DNA from: a virus
Lineage: Duplodnaviria > Caudoviricetes
IMG/VR virus record: IMGVR_UViG_3300043570_000787
Location: 973 to 64,972 of that record
DNA length: 64,000 nt
Strand: one strand, 5' to 3'
Part shown: in pieces, positions 26,147 through 30,709 of the stretch
How positions within the stretch are numbered: position 1 is the first letter of the stretch
How the letters are laid out: each line of letters opens with the position of its first letter
Position numbers and translations under genes: made by a program
Notes under the pieces: model-generated
Database searches by the model: none
Told to the model about the DNA's origin: nothing
Seen by the model: the letters and a program-made list of their open reading frames with translations, nothing else

Positions 26147-26937
26147 AGTACAAATATAATACTATTTACACAACTACTAGGAAAAGTGTTACCACTCGTC
26201 TGGCACAACTTGTATACACTTTTTACACCCTTAACTATCTGTACTACAAACACTTAAGAAAAAATCCCTTATATTGTTTATCTCTAAAGATCTCTTAATC
26301 GAAAAACATGACACCTGGAGATAGTATAATTCGATGATACTTCATCTGATTATCTGTCATAAGGATAGGATCACATAAACATCAATGATAGCCCTCTCGT
26401 GTATAACATCAATGATTCTGTACTTGTATCTACCCTATCCCATCTAGCTAACCTATGGTTACGCTTGTAATGCTACCCCCATAGGGTACATTAATGGTAC
26501 TACTATCCCTCCCCCTTTTTATATCGGATGTTCCTAACCCCAATTACAATACCCCCTGTCGTCAGGAAAAAGTATCTGTGTTTTTGAGGGACTTATACGC
26601 GCTAACCTATCCCCTCCCCGTTTCAAAAGGAAAACCGACATTGTCAAACCCTTGATTGTCAATCAGTTAACTATCTTTTTTGTCCTGTGTTACTCTTCAA
26701 ACCCCCGTTGGTATTGGGTTTCAGACGTTCGGACATATATTTGCACCATTTTAGGTATTATTCACCCTCTTTTTTATGTACTTTTTTGCTTCAAATATGC
26801 ATACATTTTAGCCTTTTAATTCCTTTCATTTGTGCCAAAAATCACCTATTTATTGGGAAAATCCAGTATTTTTATCAATTTGTAACTCATTGATTTTCAG
26901 TAACTTAAATACAATTTCAAATTTATTTTCACATTAG

Positions 26938-26971
26938 ATTGTAATTTATTCAAATTTAATTATTAATATTG
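26938..26971 (+). promoter_or_regulatory. putative first early promoter (host-sigma type)
   Basis: TAATATTG (26964-26971), one mismatch to TAnnTTTG, with TTG at 26939-26941 in an AT-rich stretch; a hairpin starts at the expected start site. Confidence 0.5.
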
Positions 26972-26977
26972 CTCCAT

Positions 26978-27482
26978 GTTTGAAACGTCAAACGTATTGA
27001 AACAAGCGGGAATTAATATAGCACGAATGTAGGGGACGAAATTAGTAATCCTTAATGCGTAATGCGTTACTAAGTAGATAGGCTACCTTATCGAAATGTA
27101 ATTAAACGAAAAGTACTGAAATTAACGCCGTCCCTAGTGGACGTAACCAAATAGCAATATTGGGGACATATTGGAAAGTAATTAGATAGCTTGGATTTTA
27201 AAAAATTGCCTTGAAATTCCCTACCAACACCATTTAGCGAAATGCTAGGCGAAAGGTAGCAAGTAGTGGGGATTAAGTAATACAAAGTTTTTTTATCGGT
27301 TTGTCATCTAGTAAAATTCAATAAGGGAATAAGTTGCAACGATAGGGTGAATGTTAATAAAATCCCCGAATACTTGAAATAGTATACGCAATACCTAGTA
27401 GAATAGTGAGCGTCAACGTGCTAATCAAAATAACGTGATTAGGTTTAAAGATAGCAATTTAAACAAAACTGCAAAATTCCCG
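26978..27482 (+). ncRNA. candidate large structured ncRNA (~500 nt)
   Basis: no plus-strand ORF; long-range helices cgggaatt 27007-27014/aattcccg 27475-27482 and tagcacg 27019-27025/cgtgcta 27417-27423; many internal hairpins, several with GAAA/GCAA-containing loops. Confidence 0.6.
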
Positions 27483-27486
27483 ATAA

Positions 27487-27554
27487 GGTTAACCGATGAG
27501 CTTTTATTAAGCGAAACGTAGGTAAACGAAATAATTTTTGCCTACGTCTTAACC
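27487..27554 (+). ncRNA. hammerhead ribozyme, type I, variant core (CCGAUGA)
   Basis: stem I ggttaa/ttaacc; core ccgatga 27493-27499; stem II gctt/aagc; GAAA 27513-27516; stem III cgtaggtaaa/tttgcctacg; GUC triplet, cleavage predicted after 27548. Confidence 0.85.
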
Positions 27555-27571
27555 AATTAAATTTTTTTATT

Positions 27572-27943
27572 ATGGCAACAACTGCTAACAAAACAAAAGT
27601 AAACGTAGTTAAAACGACAACTACGAAAGTAATTAACGCAACTAAAAAAGTTGAAAAAGTTGCAAAAGTAACCTACTTAACAGAAGGAGTAACAGGCAAG
27701 CAAATGATGCGTTCAATTTTCGATGCGAATAACGCACATAAGCAGGACTTAGGTACATTTAGCCAATGTTTGAAGCGTGCAACTGAATTTGGTGCAACTG
27801 AATTAGCAAAGAATATCAAAGGATTTGATGTCAAAGAATGTACACCAAAGAATTTAATTCCATTACGTACAAAGGACATGGACGCAAAATTTAGTGTGTA
27901 CGAAGTGCTAATGTTAATCAAGAAATTCTACCAAACAAAGTAA
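27572..27943 (+). CDS. first early gene, basic hypothetical protein
   Basis: 123 aa, K/T-rich N-terminus, followed by a terminator. Confidence 0.8.
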   Translation: MATTANKTKVNVVKTTTTKVINATKKVEKVAKVTYLTEGVTGKQMMRSIFDANNAHKQDLGTFSQCLKRATEFGATELAKNIKGFDVKECTPKNLIPLRTKDMDAKFSVYEVLMLIKKFYQTK

Positions 27944-27964
27944 TTCAATGAGTTTTAATCAATG

Positions 27965-27993
27965 AGGGGATGCGATAACGTGTCCCCTTTTTT
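27965..27993 (+). terminator. intrinsic terminator
   Basis: aggggatgcg-ataa-cgtgtcccct followed by a T tract. Confidence 0.8.
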
Positions 27994-28005
27994 AATATCT
28001 ACCAA

Positions 28006-28179
28006 ATGACAAAAGCCATTTTTATTGTGATGCTAGTTGGAGTACTAGTATCGTTTTGTGTTATGTGCGTATCTATGTGCATAACAGACGTGAATCTGTT
28101 TACATTCAGCGTTTTCCAGACGTTGCTATGTCTTGCAGGAATGTGTATAAGTGTTAAACAATTAGATAAAGAAGCATGA
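28006..28179 (+). CDS. 57-aa membrane protein
   Basis: two hydrophobic segments; ATGA overlap with the next gene; hand-translated. Confidence 0.5.
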   Translation: MTKAIFIVMLVGVLVSFCVMCVSMCITDVNLFTFSVFQTLLCLAGMCISVKQLDKEA

Positions 28180-29189: not shown

Positions 29190-29251
29190 CATAAGTAAAT
29201 AGGGGTAGCTGAAAACCTTATAGAGTAAGCACAATTAATTATTTAACTACC

Positions 29252-30709
29252 ATGAATAATAGAAATTTATTACCCGAAGACTTCTTAATTAAGAGAGATT
29301 CAAACGATCCATTATGGACTGAGTACATTAACTACCTAAACACATTCTTTGATGGTGTTCAGCCTAGTGTTTCAATTATGGGACAAGCAGAAGGATACTA
29401 CGGGCTTATTGATGATTGCCCTATCGTTCTCGATTCACCAAATTCATTAACATTGCTATCTCTTTCAGAATGGGATGCGATTGTTTCTGGTGCAGAGGTT
29501 GTTCATGTAACTACCTATGATGGTCACGAAGAGATTGAACGCAGATGTGTTTCGCTATGCAGTGATGCACCCAACAATGCGGGAGAATGGGCTAGACGCT
29601 CGGACTGTAGTTATGTTGAGAGTATCGGTTGGGTATTGTCAGAAGATACCATTACAACTCACGATGGCACAATTATGCTAGAGGGGGATGAAGATGCTGT
29701 ATGGAGTGATTGGCATGGCGAGTGGCTAGATAATAGCGACTCAAGAACTTATCATGGACATGTGGAGAGCGGTCGGCAAGATTACTTCTTCGATAGACAT
29801 GATGATTCAGTCTATATCCATGGTGAACACTATAGAAATAATAGTGTTGCCTCAGATTGTGGATGGAGATACATCAGTAGAAGAGATGAGTGGGTAGATG
29901 CCGATGACTACTGTTGCGTTGATGATTGCAACGCAGGTTATCACGACCTTGAGCGAGTTCATAAGTTTGGCAGAGATGCTAAGTTTACCATTGGATTCGA
30001 GATTGAGAAGGAAGATGACGATGCCGGTATGATTCATTACGAAGACCTATACCTTGATACCAAATGGATTAAGGAGCATGATGGTTCATTAGATGACGAC
30101 ACTGGCTATGAGTTAGTTAGTCCTGCCTTCAATCTATATGACGATGGCTTAGACAAAGACATCGAGTCTGATGATAGACTTGTTAGACTAATCAATGCTG
30201 ACAAATCAAATAGTTGTGGTGGGCATATCAATGTAGCCGCCAAAGATTACGACACCGAGCAATTGTTCGAGGGTCTGTCACACTTCTTCCCATTGTTGTA
30301 TTCATTGTACGATGGTCGATTAGATAAGACATACTCTAAGGCTAAAAAGAAACACAGGTACTACGACAAGGATAAGTACTCAGCAGTATACATCAAGTCT
30401 GAGGTGCTTGAGTTTAGAATCTTCTCAGCTGTTAGTAGTGTTGACAACTTACTATGGAGACGTGACTTAATACGTATCATGTGTGACAACATCAATCAGT
30501 CAGAGCTTGACGTACTACGCATGCTTCTCAATCACAAGTCAGACTTATACCTACACTTACGCAAGGTATACTCTCAGGAGAAACTGATAGATAAGATTGA
30601 GCGATTCATCAGAATGTGTAGCGACTTCAATAGTAAGAAGTTACCTGAGATTGTTCGAGCATCAATCAAGCCTGACAACTTAGACGTGTCAAACGAATTA
30701 GGAGCATAA
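29252..30709 (+). CDS. putative amidoligase (COOH-NH2 ligase family)
   Basis: IGFEIEKE, HDGSL, GYELVSP, SCGGHIN and EFRIF motifs; adjacent to a glutamine amidotransferase. Confidence 0.8.
   Translation: MNNRNLLPEDFLIKRDSNDPLWTEYINYLNTFFDGVQPSVSIMGQAEGYYGLIDDCPIVLDSPNSLTLLSLSEWDAIVSGAEVVHVTTYDGHEEIERRCVSLCSDAPNNAGEWARRSDCSYVESIGWVLSEDTITTHDGTIMLEGDEDAVWSDWHGEWLDNSDSRTYHGHVESGRQDYFFDRHDDSVYIHGEHYRNNSVASDCGWRYISRRDEWVDADDYCCVDDCNAGYHDLERVHKFGRDAKFTIGFEIEKEDDDAGMIHYEDLYLDTKWIKEHDGSLDDDTGYELVSPAFNLYDDGLDKDIESDDRLVRLINADKSNSCGGHINVAAKDYDTEQLFEGLSHFFPLLYSLYDGRLDKTYSKAKKKHRYYDKDKYSAVYIKSEVLEFRIFSAVSSVDNLLWRRDLIRIMCDNINQSELDVLRMLLNHKSDLYLHLRKVYSQEKLIDKIERFIRMCSDFNSKKLPEIVRASIKPDNLDVSNELGA

What the first reader, a model, noticed from the sequence alone, without database searches (positions are those of the whole stretch)
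27487..27554. Variant-core hammerhead ribozyme between the large RNA and the first early gene
Seen: a complete three-stem hammerhead topology (stem I ggttaa/ttaacc open, so type I; stem II gctt/aagc; stem III 10 bp; GAAA; GUC site) with core CCGAUGA instead of canonical CUGAUGA (U4C). It starts 4 nt after the large RNA's closing helix, and the predicted cut after 27548 is 23 nt before the ATG at 27572. Known: hammerhead cleavage yields a 2',3'-cyclic phosphate and a 5'-OH. Inference: a self-processing unit (promoter-large RNA-ribozyme-gene-terminator at 27965) that releases a ~570-nt RNA with a defined 3' end and a 5'-OH mRNA for the 123-aa basic protein, a possible partner of the RNA.
Basis: partly seen in the sequence, partly recalled or inferred. 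Interest (0 to 1): 0.9.

Follow-up and report, generated by a model that had tools for sequence, protein, structure and literature searches.

The report
Phage hammerhead ribozyme, U4C core variant
A genuine self-cutting hammerhead RNA sits between a long non-coding leader and a small gene of a lake-water phage; it is an ordinary kind of phage element whose one odd core letter arose recently and may slow the cut.

Summary
The motif at 27487-27554 is real. It is a type I hammerhead with a 6-bp stem I, a 4-bp stem II, an 11-bp stem III, GAAA and a GUC site, and its core reads CCGAUGA (C for U4 at 27494). A descriptor scan found it once in the window and once in total across 100 shuffles. Four related phage contigs carry the same ribozyme at the same place with the canonical CUGAUGA core, and stem III covaries among them. 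Assemblies of two other lake samples repeat the C. Two slightly diverged relatives have U, so C4 is real and recently derived. C4 was the only core deviation among 68 closing hammerheads of this phage subclass, seen twice. Published work says U4C considerably lowers activity in vitro but remains sufficient in vivo for viroid infectivity.

More distant relatives of the downstream gene carry a type III hammerhead or other three-way-junction elements at the same junction. This supports an RNA-processing role there. Cleavage, a stable ~570-nt RNA and any RNA-protein partnership remain untested.

Earlier notes of this scan report phage hammerheads, U4C ones included, on other DNA. Verdict: a new member of a known kind, of moderate interest.

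The parts
26964..26971 (+). Promoter-like -7 box TAATATTG (inferred), which would put the transcript start near 26975
   Evidence: It aligns by position with TAnnTTTG-type boxes (TATATTTG, TACATTTG, TATGTTTG) lying 239-586 nt upstream of the junction element in 11 related loci. That this is the Bacteroidota -7 consensus is recalled, not tested. The sigma-70 scan found nothing here.
26975..27486 (+).
   Evidence: No + strand ORF of 40 aa or more lies within it. No Rfam family matches at E<=10. The MFE fold has a closing helix 27007-27014/27475-27482, but z is only -1.42.
27487..27492 (+). Hammerhead stem I, 5' strand (GGUUAA)
   Evidence: Pairs 6/6 with 27549-27554. Identical in the relatives L003, L004, L005 and L068.
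27493..27499 (+). Core box C3-A9, CCGAUGA; C at 27494 replaces U4
   Evidence: The C is repeated in contigs of runs X7 and X8. It is T in the diverged contigs of X9 and X18.
27500..27512 (+). Stem II hairpin GCUU-UUAUU-AAGC
   Evidence: The X9 variant has GGCU/AGCC here, which is compensatory.
27513..27515 (+). Core G12 A13 A14
27516..27547 (+). Stem III hairpin (A15.1 to U16.1, 11 pairs) with the conserved loop CGAAAUAAUU
   Evidence: The stem covaries among the relatives. GAAAUAAUU is kept in all five sequences, preceded by C in the window and U in the others.
27548..27549 (+). Predicted cleavage site: C17 (27548), then U1.1 (27549)
   Evidence: GUC triplet at 27546-27548. The relatives have GUC or GUA. 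Cleavage itself is not shown.
27549..27554 (+). Stem I, 3' strand (UUAACC), which would be the 5' end of the mRNA
   Evidence: A YUAAC(C) leader follows the junction element in all related loci.
27572..27943 (+). ORF of 123 aa with a Lys/Thr-rich tail and a conserved four-helix domain; function unknown
   Evidence: (112 homologues). No Pfam, PHROG or PDB match.
27964..27989 (+). Intrinsic-terminator-like hairpin with a T run
   Evidence: The same hairpin follows the gene in L003/L075 and L068. In L069 and L071 a like hairpin forms stem III of a second hammerhead.

Best explanation
This is a type I hammerhead self-cleaving ribozyme, a member by descent of a large class found in phage operons. 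It is transcribed as part of the rightward transcript that starts near 26975. If it folds as predicted it cuts between C27548 and U27549. That cut would separate the roughly 570-nt non-coding leader, which keeps the ribozyme body and a 2',3'-cyclic phosphate, from a roughly 450-nt mRNA that begins 5'-OH-UUAACCAAUU, 23 nt before the start codon of the 123-aa protein. The C at core position 4 is a recent substitution in this phage lineage. It most likely slows the reaction without abolishing it. Shown here: the motif, its homology, the covariation and the conserved junction. Inferred: transcription, cleavage and its rate, and any use of the released leader RNA.
For: The complete topology is found at one site only and is rare by chance. 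Four distinct related contigs (L003, L004=L006 type, L005, L068) hold the same ribozyme in front of the same gene with CUGAUGA. Stem III shows compensatory changes, for example G-C to A-U at its third pair and C-G to G-C distally. The X9 variant swaps stem II GCUU/AAGC for GGCU/AGCC. In the wider subclass, 39 sequences chosen by core and stem II only show 6 of 6 stem I pairs and 3 of 5 stem III pairs with changes on both sides, with 99% of cells paired against 31-44% when partners are slid. The gene's relative in L078 has a type III hammerhead at the same junction (RF00008, 37.1 bits, E 8.5e-5, below the gathering score of 48.5). Other relatives have three-way junctions whose closing stem ends 1-2 nt before the same CUAAC leader. 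On U4C: all stems and all other core positions are intact. The C4 strain was assembled identically from runs X7 and X8. C4 was the only deviation from CUGANGA among 68 closing hammerheads and was seen twice, in the window and in L016. Perreault et al. [quoted passage not shown] The same paper reports a halovirus hammerhead 13 nt upstream of an early gene, with the mapped 5' end within three nucleotides of the cut site.
Against: There are no cleavage data. The RNA-library contigs of X18 cannot show ends. U4 is invariant in 66 of 68 closing hammerheads. Comprehensive mutagenesis of another hammerhead found low activity for all single mutants of the CUGA U-turn (PMC9901934, section 7 passages). 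U4 in the nearest relatives means that selection has not had long to act on C4. No convincing stem I / loop II tertiary contact was found. Family member L068 has a weakened stem II (C.A at 10.1/11.1; its MFE fold does not form stem II), so constraint on catalysis in this family may be relaxed.
Confidence: 0.55

Rival explanations
1. It is a freshly disabled hammerhead. The element is a hammerhead by descent, but C4 has in practice killed cleavage in this lineage. The gene is then translated from the uncut transcript, or host RNases do the trimming.
For: U4 lies in the U-turn, where all single mutants had low activity (PMC9901934 passages). Perreault 2011 says U4C considerably decreases activity in vitro. 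The nearest relatives still have U. Related phages do without a recognisable ribozyme at this junction (L070, L072-L077, L079, L081/82). L068 also looks impaired.
Against: The C4 strain is assembled identically in runs X7 and X8, and the word index lists six further lake runs that hold the whole stretch, which may include the source. No second lesion has accumulated. C4 is the only core deviation seen in closing hammerheads of the subclass, and it was seen twice. The viroid precedent shows in vivo activity (PMC3088659).
Confidence: 0.33
2. The fold matters more than the cut. The ribozyme-shaped three-way junction, with its conserved stem III loop GAAAUAAUU, serves mainly as a structural or protein-binding 3' domain of the leader RNA, or as a substrate mimic for a host RNase. 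Self-cleavage would be secondary.
For: The stem III loop is kept in all five family members while the stem below it changes. Non-ribozyme three-way junctions occupy the same place in relatives.
Against: The whole catalytic core is also invariant in the relatives, which a mere scaffold would not need. The motif YGAAATA is not enriched in the window (28 found against 34 expected). Loop II / loop III complementarity is lost in L068 and in the X9 variant.
Confidence: 0.1
3. It is a chance match to a short degenerate motif in A+T-rich DNA.
For: One core mismatch. No Rfam hit.
Against: One hit in total in 100 shuffles. Canonical orthologues with covariation exist. 0 of 37 non-hammerhead cores that matched the stem II/GAAAC half-pattern closed into a hammerhead.
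Confidence: 0.02

Closest known systems
Type I hammerhead ribozymes between genes of phages and prophages (Perreault et al. 2011, PMC3088659; Rfam clan of RF00163/RF00008)
   Same: Three-stem junction, core, GUH site and placement just upstream of a phage gene. In my sample of the same subclass, 23 of 50 distinct loci had a same-strand ORF ending within 12 nt upstream of core position 4, and another ORF shortly downstream.
   Different: Here the upstream neighbour is a noncoding leader of about 500 nt rather than an ORF. The core has C4. Rfam's models do not reach this subclass at their thresholds.
Natural U4C hammerhead of a viroid (Ambros and Flores 1998, known to me only through the sentence and reference in PMC3088659; the paper itself is not held)
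   Same: The same single core substitution in an otherwise intact natural hammerhead.
   Different: That one is an RNA replicon with a type III hammerhead used in rolling-circle processing. This one is DNA-encoded, type I, and lies in a phage mRNA leader.
HHphage of haloviruses HF1/HF2 (PMC3088659, Discussion)
   Same: A variant-core hammerhead a few nucleotides upstream of the first ORF of an early phage transcript. The mapped 5' end there lies within three nucleotides of the cut site.
   Different: A different core change (insertions near C3), an archaeal virus, and no long leader RNA described.
Hammerheads in UTRs of RNA viruses that enable translation initiation (PMC13725137, passages seen)
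   Same: Type I hammerheads with a long helix III, sited a few nucleotides upstream of a start codon.
   Different: Those are eukaryotic RNA viruses with cap-independent translation. Nothing here tests translation.

Membership tests
Hammerhead ribozyme (type I) | Three helices around a junction, with stem I open and stems II and III closed by loops | tested here: met
   MFE equals centroid, both alone and in context. Full-length match to model R1.
Hammerhead ribozyme (type I) | Core C3 U4 G5 A6 N7 G8 A9, G12 A13 A14, and the A15.1-U16.1 pair | tested here: not met
   All positions are consensus except U4, which is C at 27494. Natural U4C hammerheads are reported as active in vivo (PMC3088659), so this is a variant core and not an exclusion by descent.
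Hammerhead ribozyme (type I) | Cleavage triplet with U16.1 and a non-G H17 | tested here: met
   GUC at 27546-27548.
Hammerhead ribozyme (type I) | Homology to canonical members, with compensatory changes in the stems | tested here: met
   L003, L004/L006, L005 and L068 have CUGAUGA and a covarying stem III. The X9 variant has a compensatory stem II.
Hammerhead ribozyme (type I) | [quoted passage not shown] | tested here: inconclusive
   By eye, loop II UUAUU can pair with AAUAA-like flanks in some members, but not consistently. A+T-rich flanks make chance matches likely.
Hammerhead ribozyme (type I) | Mg2+-dependent self-cleavage giving a 2',3'-cyclic phosphate and a 5'-OH | not testable with these tools
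   Only contigs of runs were available, and these show no ends.
Hammerhead ribozyme (type I) | Match to Rfam hammerhead models | tested here: not met
   No hit at E<=10. However, canonical relatives and other phage type I hammerheads are also missed at the gathering thresholds. L002 gave only an 18.3-bit partial RF00008 hit.
Known large structured RNAs (ROOL, GOLLD, OLE, HEARO and others in Rfam) for the upstream leader | Match to the family's covariance model | tested here: not met
   No family matches at E<=10 over 26700-28100, or at gathering score in the relatives.

The most novel reading that the evidence does not exclude
The hammerhead may be one interchangeable 'cutter' in a conserved three-part module of freshwater phages. 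The module would consist of a long, fast-evolving non-coding RNA (about 240-590 nt) transcribed first from a TAnnTTTG-type promoter, then a processing element, then a conserved small basic protein. The processing element would be a type I hammerhead, a type III hammerhead, a T-arm-bearing tRNA-like fold or a covarying three-way junction. Whichever is present would define both the 3' end of a new class of phage RNA and the 5' end (YUAACC...) of the mRNA.
Probability: 0.3. Interest if true: 0.7.

Novelty: new member of a known kind. Interest (0 to 1): 0.4.

Why it matters
The element itself adds one more phage hammerhead, plus a dated natural experiment on core position 4: C4 and U4 strains that are about 96% identical over this stretch coexist in lake samples. 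Such a pair is a convenient way to measure what U4C costs in a natural type I ribozyme. The context is the more interesting part. The same junction in related phages holds different structured elements, which points to a required RNA-processing step after a long leader RNA of unknown role.

Tried and rejected
Rfam at the gathering and E-value thresholds gave no hammerhead for the window. I do not count this as evidence against, because canonical relatives are also missed.

The phage GenBank collection held no DNA match to 26900-28000.

A scan anchored on the 3' half of the ribozyme found no further family members in metagenome contigs or in IMG/VR beyond L003-L006.

A pattern taken from the window-type leader found 11 stretches. 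Of these, only L162 is a known relative (it lies on the same contig as L079), and none carried a family hammerhead.

I used the search for related loci with the protein alignment instead.

Loop II / loop III kissing (UUAUU with AAUAA) is rejected. The complementarity is lost in L068 and in the X9 variant, and the two loops lie at opposite ends of the stacked stems II and III; that geometry is recalled, not tested.

Enrichment of YGAAATA as a binding motif is rejected (28 found, 34 expected). YTAACCAA is not enriched in the window either (7 found, 6.6 expected).

A consensus structure for the leader RNA of eight relatives was weak (-4.11 kcal/mol, 11 pairs). The window's leader fold is not significantly stable (z = -1.42; z = -0.97 with the ribozyme included).

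ARAGORN calls no tRNA in L070, L079, L081, L082, L078, L072 or L076, so 'tRNA-like' rests on a T-arm and a closing stem only.

The L072-type element could not be aligned convincingly to the hammerhead.

The protein model (mean pLDDT 70) has no PDB match at E<=0.001.

RNA-library run X18: its contigs cover 27011-27218, 27333-27500 and 27847-27997 of a relative and not the stretch between. This shows neither transcription nor an end.

The supplements of PMC3088659 (Figures S6 and S7, on active and inactive core variants) are closed and may bear on U4C.

I made no literature search aimed at the leader RNA family, so I make no claim that it is undescribed beyond its absence from Rfam.

Full report
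WHAT IS THERE. The window is an IMG/VR virus record of 64,972 bases, estimated 96% complete. The public runs that hold this stretch are lake-water metagenomes. At 27487-27554 the + strand reads GGUUAA / CCGAUGA / GCUU-UUAUU-AAGC / GAA / A-CGUAGGUAAA-CGAAAUAAUU-UUUGCCUACG-U / C / UUAACC. This is the full type I hammerhead layout. Every core position is at consensus except position 4, which is C instead of U (27494). The predicted cut after C27548 is 23 nt upstream of the ATG at 27572. A terminator-like hairpin follows the 123-aa ORF at 27964-27989.

IS IT MORE THAN CHANCE? The minimum-energy and centroid folds give the three-stem hammerhead, both for the piece alone (z = -2.85) and within a 626-nt context. 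A descriptor scan that allowed one core mismatch finds this one site in the window and a single hit in total across 100 dinucleotide-preserving shuffles of the whole window.

RFAM. Rfam reports no hammerhead here even at E<=10. It also reports none at its gathering thresholds for the canonical relatives, or for the 15 loci holding other complete phage type I hammerheads that I tested. The miss therefore says little.

RELATIVES OF THE RIBOZYME. The downstream protein and a DNA pattern led to related phage contigs. In L003 (the same contig as L002 and L075), L004 and L006 (near-identical; the same contigs as L080 and L069), L005 (L071) and L068, the same ribozyme stands in front of the same gene. 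All of them have the canonical CUGAUGA.
- Stem I, most of stem II and the GAAA are identical across these relatives.
- Stem III changes in a compensatory way. Its third pair is G-C in four sequences and A-U in L068, and a distal pair is C-G in L004 and G-C in L005.
- GAAAUAAUU in the stem III loop is kept in all five, preceded by C in the window and U in the others.
- L068 has a weakened stem II, with C.A at 10.1/11.1, and its MFE fold does not form that stem.

THE C AT POSITION 4. Contigs of two further lake runs (X7 record 5 and X8 record 9) are identical to the window across the ribozyme, C included. The C is therefore not an assembly slip of the record. A diverged contig in X9 has 12 differences and 2 gaps over 27290-27565. 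It carries U at position 4, C at the variable position 7, an extra U after A9, and stem II changed from GCUU/AAGC to GGCU/AGCC, which is a double compensatory change. A contig of the RNA library X18 has 6 differences and 1 gap over 27333-27500 and also has U at position 4 (all). The C is thus a recent, derived substitution in an otherwise well-kept ribozyme.

THE WIDER CLASS. A pattern that fixed only N4-A9, stem II and GAAAC found 64 IMG/VR stretches.
- Of the distinct sequences, 44 closed into a full type I hammerhead with a 6-bp open stem I. One of these (L061) closed only weakly. Two distinct sequences did not close; one of them is cut short by the end of its locus.
- An alignment of 39 of them, which left out the window, L016 and three long or doubtful rows, shows 6 of 6 stem I pairs and 3 of 5 stem III pairs with changes on both sides. 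99% of cells are paired, against 31-44% when the partners are slid.
- A caveat applies: my script required at least 5 of 6 stem I pairs, so the stem I pairing is partly by construction. Stem III pairing was not required.
- In 23 of 50 distinct loci, a same-strand ORF ends within 12 nt upstream of core position 4. This is the intercistronic arrangement described by Perreault et al. 2011 (PMC3088659; sections 6, 8 and 11 read in part).

HOW COMMON IS C4? I repeated the scan with positions 3-7 left free. It gave 108 distinct rows, of which 68 close into a hammerhead: 45 CUGAUGA, 13 CUGACGA, 8 CUGAAGA and 2 CCGAUGA (the window and L016). None of the 37 rows with unrelated cores closes. C4 is therefore the only deviation from CUGANGA seen in this sample, and it was seen twice.

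WHAT THE PAPERS SAY ABOUT U4C. [quoted passage not shown] It cites Ambros and Flores 1998, which is not held in the library. PMC9901934 (section 7 passages) reports low activity for all single mutants of the CUGA U-turn in another hammerhead. Earlier notes of this scan also call U4C a recurrent minority variant in phage hammerheads. These are unchecked notes; my searches agree with them for this subclass.

THE JUNCTION IN MORE DISTANT RELATIVES. The 123-aa protein has 112 homologues. An alignment of 30 of them found 15 viral loci.
- Besides the type I hammerhead loci, L078 (55% identity) has a type III hammerhead in the same place. The evidence is RF00008 at 37.1 bits, E 8.5e-5, a full-length match below the gathering score of 48.5, and the matching MFE fold at z = -2.94.
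- L070 has a cloverleaf-like fold with an 8-bp closing stem and a canonical T-arm, GGGGUUCGAAUCCCC.
- L079 and L081/L082 have three-way or long-stem elements.
- L072/L073, L074, L076 and L077 share a three-way junction whose outer stem (GCCUUG/CGAGGC, GCCUUG/CAAGGC, GCCGUG/CAUGGC) and inner hairpin (CUUCG/CGAAG, CUAAA/UUUAG, CUAGA/UCUAG) covary.
- In every case the closing stem ends 1-2 nt before a CUAAC(C) leader. This corresponds to the UUAACC that the hammerhead cut would expose.
- All these loci have a long ORF-poor stretch upstream. A TAnnTTTG-type box lies 239-586 nt before the junction element.
This pattern is the best support for the view that the junction is an RNA-processing site. 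It remains an inference.

A SECOND HAMMERHEAD IN SOME RELATIVES. In L069 and L071 a second hammerhead follows the stop codon of the gene directly. It has the same stem I (GGUUAA/UUAACC). Its stem III is a terminator-like hairpin (45-47 bits; z about -5). The window, L003 and L068 have only the terminator hairpin at that place. The two-ribozyme arrangement therefore does not apply to the window.

THE LEADER RNA AND THE PROTEIN.
- The 512 nt upstream of the ribozyme match no Rfam family.
The fold is not significantly more stable than shuffles (z = -1.42).
- Leaders of eight relatives share sequence blocks but give only a weak consensus structure.
- The window's leader resembles that of L079 in parts, by eye.
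- The protein has a disordered Lys/Thr-rich tail and a four-helix domain (mean pLDDT 70.3). It has no Pfam, PHROG or PDB match.
- Nothing ties the protein to the RNA beyond adjacency.

VERDICT. The element is a hammerhead by descent and an ordinary kind of phage element. Its C4 is a recent substitution that probably weakens the ribozyme and may or may not cripple it. The 'self-processing unit' reading is plausible and gains comparative support, but cleavage, a stable leader RNA and an RNA-protein partnership are all untested. I rate it a new member of a known kind, with interest 0.4.

Noticed in passing
window 29199-29231 (+); also L062:9224-9258 and L070:3968-4000: A DUF805b RNA motif (RF02914) scores 35.9 bits, just above its gathering score of 35.6. 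It lies about 20 nt upstream of the 485-aa gene at 29252. The same motif occurs in two other phage loci fetched here (45 and 47.4 bits).
   Followed up: no
L071:2283-2355 and L069:2337-2410: A second type I hammerhead starts right after the stop codon of the homologous gene. It has the same stem I as the first, and its stem III is a terminator-like hairpin followed by a U run. In those phages the gene is therefore flanked by two ribozymes. The window has only the terminator hairpin at this place.
   Followed up: partly
L072:1876-1924, L074, L076:1930-1978, L077:1858-1906: A 49-nt three-way junction with covarying outer stem and hairpin (loop AGCGAAA) replaces the hammerhead in front of the homologous gene. 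It matches no Rfam family at E<=1 (L072 and L076 were tested). It may be an RNase substrate or an unknown ribozyme.
   Followed up: partly
L070:1906-1965; L079:2315-2364: tRNA-like folds with canonical T-arms (GGGGUUCGAAUCCCC; GGAGUUCAAGUCUCC) and long closing stems lie directly before a CUAAC leader. ARAGORN does not call them as tRNAs.
   Followed up: partly
window about 26870-26905 (+), and the same place in L004, L005, L006 and L068: A conserved DNA block, TTTATCAATTTGTAA...TGATTTTCAGT, lies about 70-100 nt upstream of the promoter-like box. It is shared by phages whose leaders have otherwise diverged, and may be a regulatory site.
   Followed up: no
L016:24-80 (-): An independent type I hammerhead with the same U4C core (CCGAUGA) and perfect stems (z = -3.03). 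It starts directly after the upstream ORF, which ends 4 nt before core position 4, in an unrelated 35.5-kb viral contig.
   Followed up: partly
loci: Rfam release 15 hammerhead models reported none of the complete, canonical phage type I hammerheads in the 20 loci searched at gathering thresholds. This subclass seems to be outside the current models.
   Followed up: partly
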